Shown here: positions 49,052-60,805 of the stretch, in pieces
How positions within the stretch are numbered: position 1 is the stretch's first letter
Layout: each line of letters begins with the position of its first letter
Virus record (IMG/VR): IMGVR_UViG_3300025127_000009
Location: 64,001 to 128,000 of that record
Direction: 5' to 3' (one strand)
From: a virus
DNA: 64,000 nucleotides
The notes under the pieces: generated by a model
Database searches by the model: none
The model's input: only the letters and a program-made list of their open reading frames with translations
What the model was told of the DNA's origin: nothing
Made by a program: the position numbers and the translations under genes

Positions 49052-49304
49052 CGCGATTGTCATCCCTTAATGGCACTAACTCCCTGATAACACTCCTCAA
49101 ATCGTTAGCAATAAACCATTTATCATAATCAAAAACATCTACCATGTTATAAACGGCGCGTTCAAAAGAAAGCCTACGGTTTAAAACATCCTCCGCTTTA
49201 CCCCTTAAATCCTTTTCATACCTGTAGCCCTCTGCTAATATCTCCTCTTTATTCCTTAGAATATCCTCAAGACTATCTTGAAAGGTCATATTACCCCTTC
49301 CCAT
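49044..49304 (-). CDS. Hypothetical protein
   Basis: 86 aa ORF (likely start MTFQDS). Confidence 0.6.
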   Translation of the reverse strand: MGRGNMTFQDSLEDILRNKEEILAEGYRYEKDLRGKAEDVLNRRLSFERAVYNMVDVFDYDKWFIANDLRSVIRELVPLRDDNRDG

Positions 49305-50568
49305 CTACTGCAATAACCTTTTCACTAGTGTTAAAGTACGGTTGCCTGTAACCATCGGCATCTGTCAACCACATACGCTGACACTTGCTAGGCTTTGGCT
49401 TTGGAGCGTACATATCTGTCAAGATGATGTGGCCATCAAAGTCACCGCGCTGGTTAACATACTCAGTAGGAGCATTGAAACACGTACCGCCACTGAGAAC
49501 TCGCTCATATTTTCTCTTGTCCCCTTTCTTCCATACATAAATCTTACTCTCATCTACTTTTGTATCGAATGGAACGACTGTAAACTCTGCTAATTCAGCC
49601 AGTTTGTTCAATTCGGAAAAGAACATTGCTAACATCTCGTTACTTACAGATCCTGACTGATCAATTGATACCGCAATCTTGGCAACCCGCGCTTGTTTAC
49701 GGCCCGGATGTACGTATGGAAACCTCCTGTTAATCCTCTTGATAGAACTAGACTTGTTGGCACGTTGTGATGTCTTAACAAAATATCTTAAAACCTTCCT
49801 CCAGTCAATGACTGTCTTGATAGAATCCATAATTTTCTGGCGAGTAGACTGTGATACTGAACCCCACCCATTACTGGACGCGGCTTCCTGTGCTGCGTTT
49901 TTTACAATATCTTTTATACGTTCAGAAGCAATATCCTTTATCTCTTGCGGGCATTTACCCCACCCGCTATGATCATCTAAAGATTCCGGTGCAGGAGTAC
50001 CGCTAGAAGCGCCAGAATCGCCGTCTCCGGGGTTTTCTCCACTAGACCCACCATCGGACCCGTCTCCGCTACTACCTTGCCCAGAATCGCCGTCATTTCC
50101 AGATTGTGTAATGGCCTCTGGCAAGTTAGCAAGATACCATTCAGCGGACATACCTTTAGGCAAATCCTCAAACTGATCTTTACCCGGAATGAGACCACCC
50201 TCGGGCAGATTATCAATGTGGCTATTAATTGCTAAATCAGTAGCAATATTCCAATGTTGCATAGGCACGTTATCAGGCATACGGTCAGTAACATGCTTAA
50301 AAATAATATGGTAGAACTCATGCTTAAGCACTGCCAAGCGTTCTTTGCTGGTTAGAGCCTTAAAGAACTCAGGGTTGTACAACATCTCAAACTGTGCTGA
50401 ATCAGGGTTAACCATAACACCGGCAGTAGGCACCGAAAACGATGCACGCTTATCAATGCGCCGCGATATAGATGCAAAAAATGGCTCTTCTAAAAGCAAT
50501 TTTGCAGTGTGCATATTGAGATCAAAGGTCTGCTCATCCATAACTGTAGTCTCTTGTTGCGTTGTCAT
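49291..50568 (-). CDS. DUF2201-type putative metallopeptidase-vWA protein
   Basis: LKHEFYH (HExxH), NIATDLAINS, Ser/Gly/Asp linker, DQSGSVS MIDAS, GGT, LTD. Confidence 0.85.
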   Translation of the reverse strand: MTTQQETTVMDEQTFDLNMHTAKLLLEEPFFASISRRIDKRASFSVPTAGVMVNPDSAQFEMLYNPEFFKALTSKERLAVLKHEFYHIIFKHVTDRMPDNVPMQHWNIATDLAINSHIDNLPEGGLIPGKDQFEDLPKGMSAEWYLANLPEAITQSGNDGDSGQGSSGDGSDGGSSGENPGDGDSGASSGTPAPESLDDHSGWGKCPQEIKDIASERIKDIVKNAAQEAASSNGWGSVSQSTRQKIMDSIKTVIDWRKVLRYFVKTSQRANKSSSIKRINRRFPYVHPGRKQARVAKIAVSIDQSGSVSNEMLAMFFSELNKLAELAEFTVVPFDTKVDESKIYVWKKGDKRKYERVLSGGTCFNAPTEYVNQRGDFDGHIILTDMYAPKPKPSKCQRMWLTDADGYRQPYFNTSEKVIAVDGKG

Positions 50569-50574
50569 GATTGC

Positions 50575-50603
50575 ACTATAACCCTATCCAGAACAAATGT
50601 CAA
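50575..50603 (-). promoter_or_regulatory. Sigma70-like promoter, near-leaderless start of the vWA gene
   Basis: TTGACA-N17-TATAGT, ATG 6 nt downstream. Confidence 0.7.
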
Positions 50604-51676
50604 TTATTTTCTACATCGCCAAGGATTTCAACCAGGAAATCCGACACTGAACGACCATCAACCGATGCCTGATGTAGACTAACAAGATTATCTCTTGCTG
50701 ATTCATCCTCCACTGAACCCATAACCGTCCACAATTTCATAGCAACCTCAGAGGGAAGCATAAAGAAATACCTTGCCACGTTATCCATTTGCTCTTGCGG
50801 CAAGACACTGTGGAAAGTCTCCGCTGATTCAAACTTGGCCACCATAGCAGTATGCTCATTGATACCAAAGTCTGCTAACTTAGAGAAGTCACCCTTGATA
50901 AGAATATCCTCAATAGACACTTGCCTGTCATAGTTAGCAATAAAATCCTTGAATGCTACCGCAGCCTCAAAACCAACAAAAGCACTGGTTAACTGAAACA
51001 ATAGAGCACCATCCTTGCTCTCATAAGCATTGGCATGCTGTAAACACTCGTCTAAACGCTCCCAAGAACGACGGGAAGGATAGACCTTGTTTGGCTCATA
51101 GTCATCGCTATGCTCAAGATGATTGTGGTTATGATTAATAAAATCCCACACTTCCGAGGACAAGCCGGTATCCTTGGCCCAGTTAAGCCAATCATCTACC
51201 GATGGTTCAATATCAAACACAGTCCACCTGTCAAGTTCAGCGGGATCCATCTCGCCTACCTGGTATTGGGCACCGTGCTCGCCACCATTAACAGCAGCAA
51301 ATACAAGGGTGTCATCATGTAGACAGTGGCCATTCAGTTTTCGACTATCTGTCAACTCAAAAATACCCTGACGCACCTCAACTGTGGCACGGTCTACCTC
51401 ATCCAAGAATAGAACAACTGGCTCATCACATGCACGCTTAAACCAATCCGGTGGATTAAAGGAAGTACTATTCCCATTGATAACAGGTAGACCAACAAGG
51501 TCACCTTCGGTCATCTGAGATGCGCGGCGTTCTACCACAGGCAACCCAATGTGGTCAGCATACTGATATACAACGGTAGACTTACCAATACCGTGACGGC
51601 CACGTAAGAGAACTGGCTTGCGAACACCTGTAACGTAACCGACGACGCTACCAAAAGTCTTGAAGTCAACTGCCAT
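50600..51676 (-). CDS. MoxR-like AAA+ ATPase
   Basis: GRHGIGKS Walker A, LFLDE Walker B, EGDLVGLP, SRRSWE. Confidence 0.9.
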   Translation of the reverse strand: MAVDFKTFGSVVGYVTGVRKPVLLRGRHGIGKSTVVYQYADHIGLPVVERRASQMTEGDLVGLPVINGNSTSFNPPDWFKRACDEPVVLFLDEVDRATVEVRQGIFELTDSRKLNGHCLHDDTLVFAAVNGGEHGAQYQVGEMDPAELDRWTVFDIEPSVDDWLNWAKDTGLSSEVWDFINHNHNHLEHSDDYEPNKVYPSRRSWERLDECLQHANAYESKDGALLFQLTSAFVGFEAAVAFKDFIANYDRQVSIEDILIKGDFSKLADFGINEHTAMVAKFESAETFHSVLPQEQMDNVARYFFMLPSEVAMKLWTVMGSVEDESARDNLVSLHQASVDGRSVSDFLVEILGDVENN

Positions 51677-51727: not shown

Positions 51728-51801
51728 ATTATGCACAAACGATTTACATATTGCAAACAAAAAATGAAAAATCGTAAAAACAAAATAAATTCAATTACTT
51801 A
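51728..51801 (-). promoter_or_regulatory. Sigma70-like promoter with upstream IHF-like box
   Basis: TTGCAA-N17-CATAAT; box 51789-51801. Confidence 0.7.
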
Positions 51802-51978
51802 GCGACTACAACTTTTACAGACATAGCCACCCCACTCTGGCCGTTTAGCATTGGGGAAGTATTCATGGCAATAGAGACAATCCATACCGTAATTATTATC
51901 ACCGTTATGGTATCCCGTATCCCTATCGAACTGGAGACGGTTAGCCCTTGCAACAAATCGTACTCTAGCCTTACCCAT
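51799..51978 (-). CDS. Small zinc-finger protein (59 aa)
   Basis: Manual translation ...DCLYCHE...YVCKSCSR; not in the ORF track. Confidence 0.6.
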   Translation of the reverse strand: MGKARVRFVARANRLQFDRDTGYHNGDNNYGMDCLYCHEYFPNAKRPEWGGYVCKSCSR

Positions 51979-52271
51979 TAGTCGTCATCCTCTTCTGGCA
52001 TTAATGGTAACAATCCAGCCTTTTCTAACTCCTGCATGTACTCATCAACTGACAAGCCATACTCACTAGCATTATCTGTCATCGCTTGCAGGAAGTCAAG
52101 AATTATTTTTCTAACCGCGTATTCTTTGTTGTCCTCGTCATCTTCAGGGCCACTATCTTTTAAAAGGTTTAATATGCGTTGCCATTCCCAGTTCTTGTGT
52201 TTGCCATTCTCACTCTTATTAACAAAGTCTGTTATTGAGGTAACATTATCCTTGTCGTCATCATCTTTCAT
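51978..52271 (-). CDS. Acidic hypothetical protein
   Basis: 97 aa ORF. Confidence 0.6.
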   Translation of the reverse strand: MKDDDDKDNVTSITDFVNKSENGKHKNWEWQRILNLLKDSGPEDDEDNKEYAVRKIILDFLQAMTDNASEYGLSVDEYMQELEKAGLLPLMPEEDDD

Positions 52272-52471
52272 TATTTACCTACACCTTTGGCCATATCAAC
52301 TGAAACAACATACTGATAAGCACCTTTATTATATGCTGGCGCTGTACACTTAGCCTTGCGGGCTGTCTCTACGCGAGCATTAGCAGCGCCGCACTCTAAG
52401 CAGGTCTTATAACCTAACGCTTTTCTTTTGGGGTTGTATTCTTCCCAGCATTCAACACAGATGGCTATCAT
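52271..52471 (-). CDS. Small zinc-finger protein
   Basis: CVEC...CLECG...PAYNKGAYQY. Confidence 0.7.
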   Translation of the reverse strand: MIAICVECWEEYNPKRKALGYKTCLECGAANARVETARKAKCTAPAYNKGAYQYVVSVDMAKGVGK

Positions 52472-52475
52472 AATA

Positions 52476-52658
52476 TTATACCTTTCGCGCTTCGCTGATT
52501 ACTTCCATTTGGTTTTTAGGGTTTGAGGTAGTCATAACTTTTGGCCTGAACCATCTCACCACTCTCACCTCTTCCGTGCCTGGTATTTCCCTGATCACGA
52601 CACCGTGCCAATAGTCCCAAGGCGGCGCTTTATACTTTACTAGGTCACCAACCTTCAT
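52476..52658 (-). CDS. KVGDL-family small SH3/KOW-like protein
   Basis: MKVGDLVKY...MEVISE; start revised. Confidence 0.7.
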   Translation of the reverse strand: MKVGDLVKYKAPPWDYWHGVVIREIPGTEEVRVVRWFRPKVMTTSNPKNQMEVISEARKV

Positions 52659-52689
52659 TTGTTTTCCTCTGCAATCTTTGTATATTTGT

Positions 52690-52753
52690 ATTAAACCAAA
52701 ACAAAAAACAAAATGCAAGAAAAATTTATTTATTTAATAAATTCAAGAACTTA
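52690..52753 (-). promoter_or_regulatory. Sigma70-like promoter with upstream IHF-like box
   Basis: TTGCAT-N17-TTTAAT; box 52741-52753. Confidence 0.7.
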
Positions 52754-52937
52754 GCACTTCTTTGATAGCAAAGGTTGAGAACACTAAACCCTCACGATGC
52801 CAATCCGGAGCCTTATCCACCCATCGCACCTTTACACCATCAACTGGTGAATTGGGATGATCAGGATACATGTACTTAACATAAGTAACAATGCCCCTCT
52901 CGCCCTTGTTGGTCTCAATTAAATCACCGATTTTCAT
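52743..52937 (-). CDS. KVGDL-family small protein
   Basis: MKIGDLIE...IKEVLS. Confidence 0.7.
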   Translation of the reverse strand: MKIGDLIETNKGERGIVTYVKYMYPDHPNSPVDGVKVRWVDKAPDWHREGLVFSTFAIKEVLSS

Positions 52938-53130
52938 CCTGCCCCCCTTTAAGTTCTCTTACACAGTCTTCTGGTAGCCACAACTTTTTGCCACTTGTAA
53001 GTAAAACCTCATAATGATACTCATCATCATCGTCGTGATACTCTATATCGTATGAAATTATTACTCCAGTAGAAGAGGCCCACTCACCTAGATCATACCA
53101 TTCTGCGTCAACTAAATCACCGATTTTCAT
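52924..53130 (-). CDS. KVGDL-family small protein
   Basis: MKIGDLVD... Confidence 0.7.
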   Translation of the reverse strand: MKIGDLVDAEWYDLGEWASSTGVIISYDIEYHDDDDEYHYEVLLTSGKKLWLPEDCVRELKGGQDENR

Positions 53131-53294
53131 GCCAACACCTCAAATTCATAACCCCACCATTTTTCTTTCTTTCCGCTACCAGCAACCATAACACACCAAA
53201 GGTTAGTTTGACCGTAGGCATTACCGTGGGCATTTCCTGTTATTATCCCCACCTCGCGTCTCATAACGTGTTCAACCAAATCACCGACGTTCAC
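53127..53294 (-). CDS. KVGDL-family small protein (55 aa, GTG start)
   Basis: Manual translation (V)NVGDLVEH...FEVLA; not in the ORF track. Confidence 0.65.
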   Translation of the reverse strand: MNVGDLVEHVMRREVGIITGNAHGNAYGQTNLWCVMVAGSGKKEKWWGYEFEVLA

Positions 53295-53460
53295 TGATAA
53301 CCTCCAGTAAACTAGTCTCTACAGGCATTGATGAATAATCATAAAGCAATACATAGCCTTGTAGTGGTGCAGATTTTCTAACAATATGTATTTTTCTAGT
53401 TTTCTCTTGGGTTCTGTTAAAAGGATTCGGTCTAAATCTTACTAAATCACCGGCTTTCAC
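53281..53460 (-). CDS. KVGDL-family small protein (GTG start)
   Basis: (V)KAGDLVRF...LEVISERR. Confidence 0.7.
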   Translation of the reverse strand: MKAGDLVRFRPNPFNRTQEKTRKIHIVRKSAPLQGYVLLYDYSSMPVETSLLEVISERR

Positions 53461-53647
53461 TGATAACCTCCACTGTATCTTGTGTACACCAGAATACACC
53501 GTAGTTAAACCAATTTACTTTTATTGGGTCTGGCTTGTCTAATTGAGTGTACGGCATTACATCTACCACAATACCGTGTACGTTGTCAAGATAAGGTACG
53601 CCAAACTTGTTGTGTTTTTTTACTAGTGTTCCGACCTTGATTTTCAT
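53447..53647 (-). CDS. KVGDL-family small protein
   Basis: MKIKVGTLVKK...VEVISESR. Confidence 0.7.
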   Translation of the reverse strand: MKIKVGTLVKKHNKFGVPYLDNVHGIVVDVMPYTQLDKPDPIKVNWFNYGVFWCTQDTVEVISESR

Positions 53648-53892
53648 GGCAAACTCTCAATTTCTACTGTTGAATCCCAAGTTACATCGCCGTTCTGCCA
53701 AAGTATTTTATGTCTAACTGGCCTCGATTCCTTTTCACCGTGCGGTTTCATCCACTGTGAATCTAGTATGATTCCAAATGTTCTACTTTTCCATAATCTA
53801 TCAGTTCCACAAAATATATCATACTGACGAGAGGACTCGCTCCACTGCACAGAATCACCTTTCTTTGGGTGATGTGAAATTGAATCAGTCAT
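53644..53892 (-). CDS. KVGDL-family small protein
   Basis: PKKGDSVQW...VEIES. Confidence 0.65.
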   Translation of the reverse strand: MTDSISHHPKKGDSVQWSESSRQYDIFCGTDRLWKSRTFGIILDSQWMKPHGEKESRPVRHKILWQNGDVTWDSTVEIESLP

Positions 53893-54055
53893 CTTTGTTC
53901 TTCTTCATTTTTGAAGTGAACCTACCGTAGTTACCCATGCCATCGTAGTCCATCGTATCCTGGTTTGGCTCATCTCGCTTTTTTTCTTTTTGAATGTTAT
54001 CACCTGATTTAAAAAAAGTCAAGCCTTTAATTAGTGATGTCCAAAAATCAATCAT
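53885..54055 (-). CDS. Small hypothetical protein (56 aa)
   Basis: Manual translation MIDFWTS...MDYDGMGNYGRF...; GAGGG SD. Confidence 0.55.
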   Translation of the reverse strand: MIDFWTSLIKGLTFFKSGDNIQKEKKRDEPNQDTMDYDGMGNYGRFTSKMKKNKDD

Positions 54056-54078
54056 TAACTTCCCTCGCTATTTTTTAA

Positions 54079-54107
54079 ATCATACTAAACAAAATTTTGA
54101 AAGTCAA
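54079..54107 (-). promoter_or_regulatory. Sigma70-like promoter
   Basis: TTGACT-N17-TATGAT; near-identical copy at 59599-59627. Confidence 0.7.
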
Positions 54108-54349
54108 CATTTTTTTAAATTTTGTTTAGTCGCCAGGACTATATCCTTGTCATCAGCGGGCCACCAATTAGCGTTATTAACCGCCGCTGTCCAACTGCCA
54201 AAGTCTTTAACATCGTCAAGCCATACTATCAAGAACTCTTCAATATTACCATCGGCCCACTGTTCTCTTGATTTGGTCACCAGGCCCATTGCACCCGTGC
54301 CACAATAGTGATCATGAGGCTTGTATATCACTAGATCGCCTACCTTCAC
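54104..54349 (-). CDS. KVGDL-family small protein (GTG start)
   Basis: (V)KVGDLVIY... Confidence 0.7.
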   Translation of the reverse strand: MKVGDLVIYKPHDHYCGTGAMGLVTKSREQWADGNIEEFLIVWLDDVKDFGSWTAAVNNANWWPADDKDIVLATKQNLKKC

Positions 54350-54542
54350 TGATAACCTCCAGTTTATCTTCTTCGTGCCACATTACACTAGAGTGAACTG
54401 TATTCCACCTTACGCGAACGTTTCTATGGTTGTCAGGGCCGTGAAGGGGACTAAACTCTAAGACTATGCCAACGTATTGATTATGTACACGGTCTGATAT
54501 ATACCTGCTCTTCTTGTACGCTATCAGGTCACCGACTTTCAC
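54312..54542 (-). CDS. KVGDL-family small protein (GTG start)
   Basis: (V)KVGDLIAY...LEVISE. Confidence 0.7.
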   Translation of the reverse strand: MKVGDLIAYKKSRYISDRVHNQYVGIVLEFSPLHGPDNHRNVRVRWNTVHSSVMWHEEDKLEVISEGRRSSDIQAS

Positions 54543-54732
54543 TGATAACCTCAAACTCGCTTGGCTTATGTAGTTCGGGCTTGCGACCAGGATAAGCCAC
54601 TTTTATCAATCTTCCTGTGCCTAATATGCCGCCTGAATCTGCATCTGTACTTAAGCAAATTGCTACGGCTCTTTTTTGTTGGTGCAACTGTAACATGCCC
54701 CAGCGCTTTACTACTAAATCACCTTTTTTCAT
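54529..54732 (-). CDS. KVGDL-family small protein
   Basis: MKKGDLVVK...FEVISESR. Confidence 0.7.
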   Translation of the reverse strand: MKKGDLVVKRWGMLQLHQQKRAVAICLSTDADSGGILGTGRLIKVAYPGRKPELHKPSEFEVISESR

Positions 54733-54842
54733 CTCTTAAACTCCCAATACGCTACTGATAACGCTATCAACATTAGTACACCAAGGATTACATACTCGGT
54801 GAATCCGTCTATCTGCATACTAACCATTGCGGCTTCATTCAT
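54729..54842 (-). CDS. Small membrane protein (37 aa)
   Basis: Manual translation MNEAAMVS...VILGVLMLIALSVAYWEFKR. Confidence 0.45.
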   Translation of the reverse strand: MNEAAMVSMQIDGFTEYVILGVLMLIALSVAYWEFKR

Positions 54843-54946
54843 TTTTACCTCTGTATCCCCAATACAAACTACCAAAGAAGAGGAAGTCTGCTATAGCACC
54901 GTAGAGTAGCGGAGCGTCTAATATATACTGAGTTAAAGTAAACATT

Positions 54947-55117
54947 TTATTGTTTCATTGGATAGATATAATCAATATGTGATTCTATCTTTTTACCGTC
55001 GCGACCCAGTAATTTTATCCATTCGCTATCTTCCTTTACTGGGCCAAGCGAAAGAAACGGACCTTGAAATCCGAGCGCTTCACCATAATCTACTCTTACT
55101 AATGTTCCCGCTTTCAT
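54947..55117 (-). CDS. KVGDL-family small protein (56 aa)
   Basis: Manual translation MKAGTLVRV...; not in the ORF track. Confidence 0.6.
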   Translation of the reverse strand: MKAGTLVRVDYGEALGFQGPFLSLGPVKEDSEWIKLLGRDGKKIESHIDYIYPMKQ

Positions 55118-59303: not shown

Positions 59304-59332
59304 ATAATATAATTTAAAATTGTTTTTGTCAA
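59304..59332 (-). promoter_or_regulatory. Sigma70-like promoter
   Basis: TTGACA-N17-TATTAT. Confidence 0.7.
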
Positions 59333-59592
59333 GAAGAAAATTTTACTTTCGCTATTTGCTTTAACCATTTTGCACGGATCCACTGTGTTTCCTTAGATGC
59401 CTCTGGATCTGGAGACTTCAACACTTTTATCATACAAGTATATTCGTCGTCATGCCACCTTTGCTCGCTGGTGTTTGTTTGAGGGTTGATTAGTTTAGTT
59501 TTGACGACCAAACCTAATAGTTTAGAGTTTTCCTCACTATAAGGAACGTCAACTTCAACCAGATCGCCTATGTCAAACTTTTGTCTAATCAT
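59329..59592 (-). CDS. SH3/KOW-like hypothetical protein
   Basis: FDIGDLVEV...GLVV. Confidence 0.6.
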   Translation of the reverse strand: MIRQKFDIGDLVEVDVPYSEENSKLLGLVVKTKLINPQTNTSEQRWHDDEYTCMIKVLKSPDPEASKETQWIRAKWLKQIAKVKFSS

Positions 59593-60583: not shown

Positions 60584-60805
60584 CTAGTATTTCCTTAACT
60601 GCCAAATCCATACATCTTCTACCTGCCCTGTATTCCAAACAACTTTATATTTTTTTGTTAAGTTTGGATTCGTATCATCTAAAATTCTCTCAATAATAAT
60701 TCCTCTAAGAGGCATCTTCTCGGGCTTAACATGCTCAGAATACCTCTTAAGGTCTGGTCTGACAAGAAGCCCTGGCTTGGCTTCTCTGTCTTTTATTCTA
60801 CCCAT
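60584..60805 (-). CDS. SH3/KOW-like hypothetical protein
   Basis: KPGLLVRP...YKVVW. Confidence 0.55.
   Translation of the reverse strand: MGRIKDREAKPGLLVRPDLKRYSEHVKPEKMPLRGIIIERILDDTNPNLTKKYKVVWNTGQVEDVWIWQLRKY

What the first reader, a model, noticed from the sequence alone, without database searches (positions are those of the whole stretch)
52476..55117. Cassette-like array of 11 small KVGDL...EVISE paralogues joined by an identical multifunctional 15-nt junction
Seen: eleven 55-82 aa ORFs begin (M/V)K(V/I/A/K)G(D/T)(L/S)(V/I) but have divergent cores. The 15-mer GAGGTTATCAGTGAA is identical at four junctions (53290, 53456, 54345, 54538), with degenerate versions at others. It simultaneously encodes EVISE of the upstream gene, supplies the (G)GAGG SD and GTG start of the next, and is followed by the GGTGA that is both 'GD' and usually the upstream stop. 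Further SH3/KOW-like ORFs are scattered from 47.9 to 61.3 kb. Inference: a self-punctuating module; recombination at the junction would add, delete or shuffle whole translationally coupled genes in frame. This would be an integrase-free gene accordion of small beta-barrel binders, plausibly a diversifying anti-defence or host-protein-binding repertoire.
Basis: partly seen in the sequence, partly recalled or inferred. Interest (0 to 1): 0.75.

Follow-up and report, generated by a model that had tools for sequence, protein, structure and literature searches.

The report
Swappable chained mini-genes in marine phage
An uncultured 193-kb marine phage carries a chain of about ten tiny genes for one small barrel-shaped protein, and wild relatives have gained, lost and reordered whole genes exactly at the 14-base overlap that joins them; what the proteins do is unknown.

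Summary
On the minus strand of 52476-55117 lie 9 clear and 2 marginal members of one uncatalogued family of 55-82 aa proteins. One member gives a confident SH3-like barrel model. The 15-mer GAGGTTATCAGTGAA occurs exactly four times. Each copy encodes EVISE of the upstream gene, a GGAGG ribosome-binding site and the GTG start of the next gene. The upstream TGA stop usually lies in the next gene's Gly-Asp codons (GGTGA).

The junction belongs to the whole family. In 80 related IMG/VR loci, 304 of 399 adjacent family pairs overlap by exactly 14 nt. Its DNA identity comes mainly from dual coding and translation signals: free synonymous sites vary, and junctions within one genome are not homogenised.

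The cassette idea survives testing. Array content turns over quickly, and similarity blocks between relatives start and end in the junction (86% and 94% of ends). A Tara scaffold 94-98% identical to this window has an extra 107-aa gene inserted at the window's 53460 junction. The phage has a RecA/UvsX-like recombinase and no tyrosine integrase.

Recombination through junction homology is inferred, and the proteins' function is unknown. The closest known analogue is PeSL-mediated shuffling in T4-type phages. This scan already found the same kind of array in four other genomes, with like conclusions.

The parts
54947..55117 (-). 56-aa ORF beginning MKAGTLV; marginal family member and first gene of the run
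   Evidence: Profile E 4.4e-4. AF2 model is poor, pLDDT 62. 100% identical in L014.
54729..54945 (-). Two tiny hydrophobic ORFs (36 and 37 aa) that are not family members
   Evidence: Translations. No Pfam match. Conserved in L014.
54529..54732 (-). 67-aa family member ending EVISESR
   Evidence: Profile E 1.2e-13. An orthologue lies in L029 in a different array context.
54538..54552 (-). Exact 15-mer junction: EVISE + GGAGG SD + GTG start of 54542; upstream TGA 14 nt after the start
54312..54542 (-). 76-aa family member with a GTG start; the member whose structure was modelled
   Evidence: Profile E 1.8e-18. AF2 pLDDT 86, five-strand barrel. Foldseek finds SH3/KOW/PWWP-like folds.
54345..54359 (-). 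Exact 15-mer junction; here the Gly codon is GGC, so the upstream gene runs on (38-nt overlap)
54104..54349 (-). 81-aa family member with a GTG start; no EVISE tail; last gene of its run
   Evidence: Profile E 1.6e-11.
54056..54130 (-). Spacer with a sigma70-like promoter (TTGACT-17-TATGAT) overlapping a 19-nt inverted repeat
   Evidence: The promoter scan as a whole is not above the shuffled expectation.
53885..54055 (-). 56-aa ORF that is not a family member
   Evidence: hhalign probability 0.3%. dS against L014 is 0.61, compared with 0.1-0.2 in neighbouring genes.
53644..53892 (-). 82-aa probable divergent member with a 9-aa N-terminal extension
   Evidence: hhalign E 9.5e-5 across the whole profile. 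29% identity to family member L004:6885.
53447..53647 (-). 66-aa family member (MKIKVGTLV ... EVISESR)
   Evidence: Profile E 1.8e-16.
53456..53470 (-). Exact 15-mer junction, and the site where relative L103 carries an extra 107-aa gene
   Evidence: The insert is flanked by the direct repeat TGAAAGCCG, which runs from the start codon into the Gly codon.
53281..53460 (-). 59-aa family member with a GTG start, ending EVISERR
   Evidence: Profile E 4.1e-11.
53290..53304 (-). Exact 15-mer junction
53127..53294 (-). 55-aa family member with a GTG start; 4-nt overlap (ATGA) with the next gene
   Evidence: Profile E 2e-7. Sequence.
52924..53130 (-). 68-aa family member; 14-nt overlap with the next gene but no EVISE tail
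   Evidence: Profile E 6e-12. Sequence.
52743..52937 (-). 64-aa family member; last gene of its run
   Evidence: Profile E 2.6e-9.
52659..52742 (-). AT-rich spacer with a promoter-like TTGCAT ... TTTAAT that shares a motif with the 54.1-kb spacer
   Evidence: Sequence. Repeat I2.
52476..52658 (-). 60-aa family member; its EVISE is encoded by a decayed junction (GAAGTAATCAGCGAA) that has lost both the SD and the start
   Evidence: Profile E 6.4e-15; orthologues in 8 other loci, several carrying intact junctions, sit in different neighbour contexts.

Best explanation
This is a run of independently translated mini-genes for one family of roughly 64-aa SH3-like beta-barrel proteins. It lies in a variable accessory region of an uncultured marine myovirus.

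The genes are chained by a junction of about 37 nt with the consensus TTGGAGGTnATCA-[G/A]TG-AAAGTCGGTGAT. That stretch does four things:
- It encodes the last strand of the upstream protein (LEVIS/N-E-x-R).
- It supplies the ribosome-binding site and the start codon of the next gene.
- It encodes the first strand of the next protein (MKVGD).
- It places the upstream TGA stop inside the next gene's Gly-Asp codons.

This geometry most likely couples translation along the run (inferred).

Because every gene begins and ends with the same short sequence, recombination between junctions keeps frame, start and stop intact. Such recombination could occur within one genome or between co-infecting relatives, probably using the phage's own RecA/UvsX-type machinery. 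As a result whole genes are inserted, deleted and reordered like cassettes, without any integrase.

What is shown: the junction anatomy, its conservation across the family, the rapid turnover of array content, and breakpoints that fall in the junction.

What is inferred: that junction homology causes the exchange, and that translation is coupled.

The proteins conserve only their structural core. They are hypervariable in three loops, which fits a diversified set of binding proteins, but their target and role are unknown.
For: Family and fold:
- Nine window ORFs match the family profile at E 2e-7 to 2e-18.
- The AF2 model of the 54542 protein has pLDDT 86 and five strands. Its best fold matches are PetP, HspQ, KOW and PWWP.
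- No Pfam or PHROG family fits.
- 6093 cluster representatives (50% identity) match at E<=1e-3. Sources include Tara Oceans data.

Real genes:
- dN/dS against L014 is about 0.3-0.5, compared with 0.03-0.14 in flanking genes.

Junction:
- 304 of 399 adjacent family pairs overlap by exactly 14 nt. GTG is the start at 69% of junctions and 25% of other starts.
- The strict EVISExR tail occurs in 80% of genes followed by an overlapping family gene. It occurs in 0 of 220 genes that have no start codon at that position.
- The S/N alternation in the tail tracks GTG/ATG starts of the next gene.

Turnover:
- Loci of 19 kb hold 0-32 copies.
- 823 proteins fall into 465 clusters at 50% identity.
- The shared fraction of clusters (Jaccard) is 0.39 at >=95% ATPase identity and 0.03 at 70-80%.

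Breakpoints:
- 244 of 279 pairs of same-cluster genes have a different upstream neighbour. Identity drops to the random level (0.27) at about -13 and about +24.
- 155 of 181 left ends and 154 of 163 right ends of similarity blocks lie within about 30 nt of a junction start codon.
- L043 and L093 have clusters 11=29 adjacent. L044 has 11=18=29 and L045 has 11=37=29, with the boundaries inside the junction.
- L103, 94-98% identical to the window, has a 107-aa gene inserted at the 53460 junction, flanked by the repeat TGAAAGCCG.
- Junction remnants occur where the downstream gene is gone.

Enzymes:
- A RecA-like gene is present. No tyrosine integrase is found.
Against: - Breakpoints at gene boundaries are also what selection for intact genes would produce after random illegitimate recombination. 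Sequence comparison alone cannot show that junction homology is the cause.
- Junctions within a genome are not homogenised at free synonymous sites. Within-locus identity is 0.34 against 0.29 for shuffled data at one site, with no difference at the others. Frequent junction-to-junction gene conversion is therefore not seen.
- Exact homology is often only 10-20 nt, which is short for RecA-type exchange.
- Three near relatives (L014, L015, L104) are collinear with the window, so exchange is not rapid on that timescale.
- No expression, coupling or binding data exist.
- The model of member 55117 is poor.
Confidence: 0.65

Rival explanations
1. This is an ordinary tandem paralogue family. The junction is alike only because of common descent plus dual-coding and translation constraints. 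Exchange happens by random illegitimate recombination, and selection keeps only the products with intact genes (the Hendrix-type mosaicism model). The junction plays no mechanistic part.
For: - Free synonymous sites vary, and there is no concerted evolution within a genome.
- The strict tail is tied to the presence of a downstream start, which points to a translation constraint.
- Near relatives are collinear.
Against: - 76% of adjacent pairs keep exactly the same 14-nt register.
- Each gene is individually dispensable, so selection for precise joins should be weak.
- Chimeric or truncated genes are nearly absent among block ends.
- The L103 insert is flanked by a 9-nt direct repeat lying inside the junction.
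- The L093 junction is a simple chimera of the two L044 junctions.
Confidence: 0.2
2. This is a classical gene accordion: recent amplification and collapse of near-identical copies under selection, as seen in poxviruses.
For: - Copy number ranges from 0 to 32 per locus.
- About ten clusters have two copies within one locus.
Against: - Window paralogues are only 15-40% identical.
- 465 clusters for 823 proteins means almost every copy in a genome is a distinct old lineage.
- The same cluster turns up in many different neighbour contexts.
Confidence: 0.05
3. An unrecognised site-specific enzyme (a recombinase or homing nuclease) recognises the junction and moves the cassettes, as in an integron.
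For: The junction core is strongly conserved, and unrelated genes such as the 107-aa membrane protein also use it.
Against: - No tyrosine integrase is present.
- The neighbouring ORFs have no recognisable family, and none resembles a recombinase or nuclease.
- The junction has no attC-like inverted repeat.
- Every conserved junction base is already accounted for by coding or translation signals.
Confidence: 0.05
4. The junction is a programmed +1 frameshift site at the rare CGG codon before TGA. The +1 frame is the next gene's frame, so the phage would make multi-barrel fusion proteins.
For: - The +1 frame at CGG-TGA is the downstream frame.
- C at position +8, which gives CGG, is found in 87% of junctions against 62% of other starts.
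- Natural two-domain in-frame fusions exist (P0128, P0257).
Against: - First genes of runs carry the same N-terminus with their own ATG and SD.
- The SD lies about 19 nt from the stop, too far for prfB-type stimulation (established knowledge of prfB).
- There is no slippery sequence.
- No longer fusions were found.
Confidence: 0.04

Closest known systems
PeSL (promoter-early stem-loop) cassettes that mediate modular shuffling in hyperplastic regions of T4-type phages (Arbiol et al. 2010, PMC2839356; Comeau et al. 2014, PMC4122927)
   Same: - Short conserved sequences are repeated between non-essential small genes of a large myovirus.
- Insertions, deletions and replacements between close relatives begin and end in those repeats.
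- No integrase is involved. Homologous recombination between the repeats is the proposed mechanism.
   Different: - PeSLs are intergenic transcription signals: a sigma70 promoter plus a terminator hairpin.
- The repeat here lies inside coding sequence, is read in two frames, and carries translation signals (SD, start, stop).
- It belongs to one protein family, although unrelated genes can use it too.
- The mini-circles shown for PeSLs have not been shown here.
Integron gene-cassette arrays
   Same: - Co-oriented arrays of small, mostly promoterless genes.
- Content and order differ between relatives.
- Insertions occur at the boundaries between cassettes.
   Different: - No IntI or other tyrosine recombinase.
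- No attC-like imperfect inverted repeats.
- The boundary lies within coding sequence.
Translationally coupled overlapping genes of bacteria and phages (ATGA or TGATG overlaps)
   Same: - The stop of one gene overlaps the start of the next.
- The SD lies inside the upstream coding sequence.
- GTG starts are tolerated.
   Different: A fixed 14-nt overlap in which both reading frames encode conserved structural residues is unusual. Typical overlaps are 1 or 4 nt (established knowledge).
Small SH3-like/KOW-like barrel proteins (PetP, HspQ/YccV, KOW of NusG/Spt5, DUF2158, DUF4314)
   Same: A five-stranded small barrel. The N-terminal G-D-x-V strand resembles those of KOW and DUF2158.
   Different: - No family reaches its threshold.
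- Foldseek E-values are only about 1e-2 against PDB and about 6e-4 against BFVD.
- This is a separate, uncatalogued family.
Poxvirus-type genomic accordions and multigene families of large DNA viruses
   Same: Variable copy number of a family of small accessory genes in a large virus.
   Different: The copies are deeply divergent and are exchanged between contexts. They are not recently amplified.

Membership tests
PeSL regulatory cassettes (T4-type phages) | The repeat is an intergenic sigma70-like early promoter plus a stem-loop terminator | tested here: not met
   - The junction lies wholly inside two overlapping ORFs.
- No promoter hexamers were reported at the junctions.
- Junction folds are not more stable than shuffled sequence, z -0.2 to -0.7.
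- The separate spacer at 54056-54130 does look PeSL-like.
PeSL regulatory cassettes (T4-type phages) | Insertions, deletions and replacements between close relatives are bounded by the repeat | tested here: met
PeSL regulatory cassettes (T4-type phages) | Excised mini-circles are formed by repeat-to-repeat exchange | not testable with these tools
   This needs PCR or long reads on phage DNA.
Integron | An IntI tyrosine recombinase next to the array | tested here: not met
   PF00589 is absent from the complete 192.6-kb record, while all 14 control genomes were positive.
Integron | attC sites (imperfect inverted repeats) at cassette ends | tested here: not met
   No inverted repeat lies at the junctions.
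SH3-like small beta-barrel fold | A five-stranded barrel of about 60 residues | tested here: met
   - AF2 pLDDT 86 with strands at 6-9, 24-34, 40-46, 53-57 and 61-65.
- PetP, KOW and PWWP are the top fold matches.
- Met for the 54542 protein only. The 55117 model is poor.
Pfam KOW / DUF2158 / DUF4314 | A score above the family's gathering threshold | tested here: not met
   None of 58 members passes. The best is DUF2158 at E 4e-4 in 2 members.
Translationally coupled overlapping gene pair | The stop overlaps the next start, and the SD lies inside the upstream ORF | tested here: met
   - 14-nt overlap in 76% of pairs.
- The core bases of the GGAGG site upstream of the start are each 88-92% conserved.
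Translationally coupled overlapping gene pair | Downstream translation depends on upstream translation | not testable with these tools
   This needs reporter assays.
Genomic accordion (recent amplification) | Runs of near-identical copies | tested here: not met
   Paralogues are 15-40% identical. Only about 10 of 465 clusters are multi-copy within one locus.

The most novel reading that the evidence does not exclude
The dual-coding junction is a universal, integrase-free docking sequence. It makes thousands of SH3-like mini-genes, and some unrelated genes, freely exchangeable among a whole clade of marine myoviruses. Exchange works by short-homology recombination, possibly through excised mini-circles. 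The arrays would then be a rapidly re-assorted repertoire of host-protein or defence-system binders.
Probability: 0.35. Interest if true: 0.8.

Novelty: new variant of a known kind. Interest (0 to 1): 0.68.

Why it matters
Phage accessory regions are where counter-defence and host-takeover genes accumulate, yet how they reshuffle so quickly is known in detail for only a few systems, such as PeSLs.

Here the exchange boundary is written into the genes themselves. The last strand of one protein, the ribosome-binding site, the start, the first strand of the next protein and the stop share one roughly 37-nt stretch. Any junction-to-junction exchange therefore yields intact genes that can still be translated.

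The family is very large: at least 6093 clusters at 50% identity. It is uncatalogued and was found only in uncultured, apparently marine viral and metagenome sequences.

The work gives three things:
- A concrete and testable model for integrase-free cassette exchange.
- A defined set of small proteins to screen for function.
- A warning for gene callers, which tend to miss GTG starts that lie 14 nt inside the preceding gene.

Tried and rejected
- Megablast of the array against cultured phages found nothing.
- tblastn of one member against cultured phages found nothing.
- The nearest cultured phages by terminase (Flavobacterium phage immuto and Microcystis phage Mel-JY01, 42-44% identity) lack the family, as does a 484-kb uncultured phage.
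- Pfam and PHROGs gave no family above threshold. A PDB sequence profile search gave only weak SH3/KOW-like hits.
- Rfam found nothing in 51.5-56 kb.
- The ESM Atlas returned only viral hypothetical proteins.
- A search for longer fused forms (143 aa or more) found none, which is weak evidence.
- A test for concerted evolution at junction synonymous sites was essentially negative. I therefore dropped the idea that the four identical 15-mers reflect gene conversion.
- An SD-sequestering hairpin is present as pairing potential, but it is not more stable than controls. I do not claim it.
- A second structure model, of 55117, was low-confidence and does not confirm the fold for that member.
- A literature search for the motif and for similar arrays found no prior description in the held library.
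Full report
**Setting**

The window is bases 64001-128000 of a complete 192,597-bp IMG/VR virus record. Nearly all genes lie on the minus strand.

The terminase is 42-44% identical to those of Flavobacterium phage immuto and Microcystis phage Mel-JY01. It is about 32% identical to T4-like cyanophage terminases. The phage is therefore an uncultured myovirus only distantly related to the T4 group, and its host is unknown.

The array sits in a stretch of small ORFs between a UvdE gene and a MoxR-like AAA ATPase / DUF2201 pair.

**Observation**

The 15-mer GAGGTTATCAGTGAA occurs exactly four times, all on the minus strand. A copy with three synonymous changes lies at 52491.

Read on the minus strand, the region is a chain of ORFs. 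"=" marks a 14-nt overlap, "~" another short overlap and "|" a gap:

- 55117 | two tiny membrane ORFs | 54732 = 54542 ~ 54349
- a promoter-like spacer
- 54055 ~ 53892 ~ 53647 = 53460 = 53294 ~ 53130 = 52937
- a promoter-like spacer
- 52658

At the canonical junctions the upstream frame reads GAG GTT ATC AGT GAA nnn CGG TGA. The downstream frame reads GTG AAn nnC GGT GA.

Nine ORFs match a family profile at E 2e-7 to 2e-18. ORFs 55117 and 53892 are marginal. ORF 54055 is unrelated.

**What the proteins are**

An alignment of 58 members (A1) conserves only four elements: MKVGDLV, a G-I-V, a V-x-W and LEVIS. An alignment of 823 members shows three hot spots for loop insertions between these elements.

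AlphaFold2 gives a confident five-strand barrel, pLDDT 86. Its best fold matches are PetP, HspQ, KOW and PWWP domains, all SH3-like small barrels, at weak E-values. Small uncharacterised phage proteins also match.

No Pfam, PHROG or PDB family reaches significance.

The family is very large. A profile search found 6093 cluster representatives (50% identity) at E<=1e-3. The closer hits carry no informative name, and several come from Tara Oceans data.

Against the 95%-identical relative L014, family genes have dN/dS of about 0.3-0.5, compared with 0.03-0.14 for flanking genes. They are real genes evolving fast.

**The junction belongs to the family, not to this phage**

Searching with the adjacent ATPase gave 80 related viral loci. 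These hold 743 family genes, from 0 to 32 per 19 kb.

- Of 399 adjacent pairs, 304 (76%) overlap by exactly 14 nt.
- GTG is the start at 69% of junctions and 25% of other starts.

The junction logo is TTGGAGGTnATCA-[G/A]TG-AAAGTCGGTGAT. The third position of the Val codon (-5) is essentially free.

The Gly codon is GGT in 100% of junctions, where it creates the TGA stop. It is GGT in only 69% of other starts.

The tail residue alternates S/N exactly as the next start alternates GTG/ATG.

The strict EVISExR ending occurs in 80% of genes followed by an overlapping family gene. It occurs in none of 220 genes without a start codon at that position.

The window's last gene (52658) shows what happens without a downstream partner. 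EVISE is kept, but GAG has become GAA and AGT has become AGC, which destroys both the SD and the start. Orthologues in other phages keep an intact junction.

The DNA identity of the junction is therefore explained by two reading frames plus SD, start and stop.

Junctions within one genome are not homogenised at free sites. The exact 15-mer is simply the commonest variant, at 39 of 304 junctions. Four copies in one array is on the high side but not special.

**Cassette behaviour**

The 823 proteins fall into 465 clusters at 50% identity. Recent duplicates within a locus are rare.

Array content decays fast. The shared fraction of clusters (Jaccard) is 0.39 when the neighbouring ATPase is at least 95% identical. 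It falls to 0.03 at 70-80% identity.

Cluster maps show the same gene in many different neighbour contexts.

- Among same-cluster gene pairs, 244 of 279 have a different upstream neighbour.
- Nucleotide identity falls to the random level (0.27) right at about -13 and about +24 of the start codon.

A test that does not depend on the clustering gives the same answer. Ends of blastn similarity blocks between loci pile up at junctions. That holds for 155 of 181 left ends and 154 of 163 right ends, with almost none inside the gene cores.

In one group with 96%-identical flanks, clusters 11 and 29 are adjacent in two phages. In two others they are separated by different single cassettes (18 or 37). 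The boundaries lie inside the junction, and one junction is a simple chimera of the two that flank the insert.

The test that bears most directly on this window comes from a Tara scaffold (L103). It is 94-98% identical to window 54664-53370. It carries an extra 107-aa membrane-protein gene inserted exactly at the 53460 junction, flanked by the direct repeat TGAAAGCCG. A homologue of that insert sits in a different array context in another phage.

Three other near relatives (L014, L015, L104) are collinear with the window.

**Mechanism**

The genome encodes a RecA/UvsX-like protein and no tyrosine integrase.

I infer that short-homology recombination between junctions moves whole genes in register. 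The junction geometry probably couples translation through termination and re-initiation.

The main rival is random breakage filtered by selection. It cannot be excluded from sequence alone. It fits poorly, however, with three observations:

- The register is kept exactly in 76% of pairs.
- Individual genes are dispensable.
- Chimeric genes are scarce.

**Comparison with known systems**

The nearest known system is PeSL-mediated modular shuffling in T4-type phages (PMC2839356 and PMC4122927). The logic is the same, but the repeat there is an intergenic promoter/terminator, not a coding-embedded translational junction.

It is not an integron, because it has no integrase and no attC. It is not a poxvirus-type accordion, because the copies are old and divergent.

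No prior description of this family or junction was found in the held library.

The scan's own notes show that the same kind of array was reported and followed up in four other genomes, with like conclusions. I re-tested those claims here on this genome's own relatives.

**Verdict**

This is a new variant of boundary-sequence-mediated modular shuffling, built on a new protein family. The function of the proteins is unknown.

Noticed in passing
window 54056-54130 (minus strand) and 52659-52742: Both spacers that split the array carry sigma70-like promoters. The 54.1-kb spacer has TTGACT-17-TATGAT overlapping a 19-nt inverted repeat (89% complementary), which makes it look PeSL-like. The two spacers share a T-rich motif. 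This may be the 19-bp box noted elsewhere in this genome.
   Followed up: partly
window junctions, positions -9..-2 against +9..+16 of each start codon; also loci L016-L095: The SD-spacer segment (AGGTTATC) can pair with the Gly-Asp segment (GGTGAYYT) at 7 or more of 8 positions in 60% of junctions, against 13% of other starts. This could hide the SD until the upstream ribosome arrives. The fold energies, however, are weak and not above shuffled controls.
   Followed up: partly
L103:1205-1528; L004:6381-6701; L025 near 5795: A 105-107-aa multi-pass membrane protein, unrelated to the family, travels as a cassette. It starts with a junction-like GTGAA..G and ends ...GATACC-ATGA, and it is found in three different contexts.
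   Followed up: partly
proteins P0128 (127 aa) and P0257 (126 aa): These are natural in-frame fusions of two family domains joined at the junction (...LEVVKQ-VKVGDLV...). Rare two-barrel forms therefore exist, unless these are assembly errors.
   Followed up: no
window 53644-54055: The two-gene block 54055/53892 has dS of about 0.6 against relative L014, while all neighbouring genes have dS 0.03-0.26. This suggests the block was replaced by a diverged allele through recombination.
   Followed up: no
window 54729-54945: Two tiny hydrophobic ORFs (36 and 37 aa) sit inside the array and are conserved in L014 (100% and 75% identity).
   Followed up: no
window 51799-51978 and 52271-52471: Two small ORFs just downstream of the array each have paired CxxC motifs and look like zinc ribbons. 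They have no Pfam match.
   Followed up: no
window 49291-51676: A MoxR-like AAA ATPase plus a DUF2201 metallopeptidase/VWA pair lies next to the array. The ATPase is conserved at 58-76% identity in at least 115 IMG/VR contigs, which makes it a useful anchor for this phage clade.
   Followed up: partly
window 59329-59592 and 60584-60805: Two weak profile matches (E 0.004-0.01). The 87-aa ORF at 59592 has an orthologue in L004 that hits family member 53130 at E 3.6e-5. Divergent outlying members are therefore likely.
   Followed up: partly
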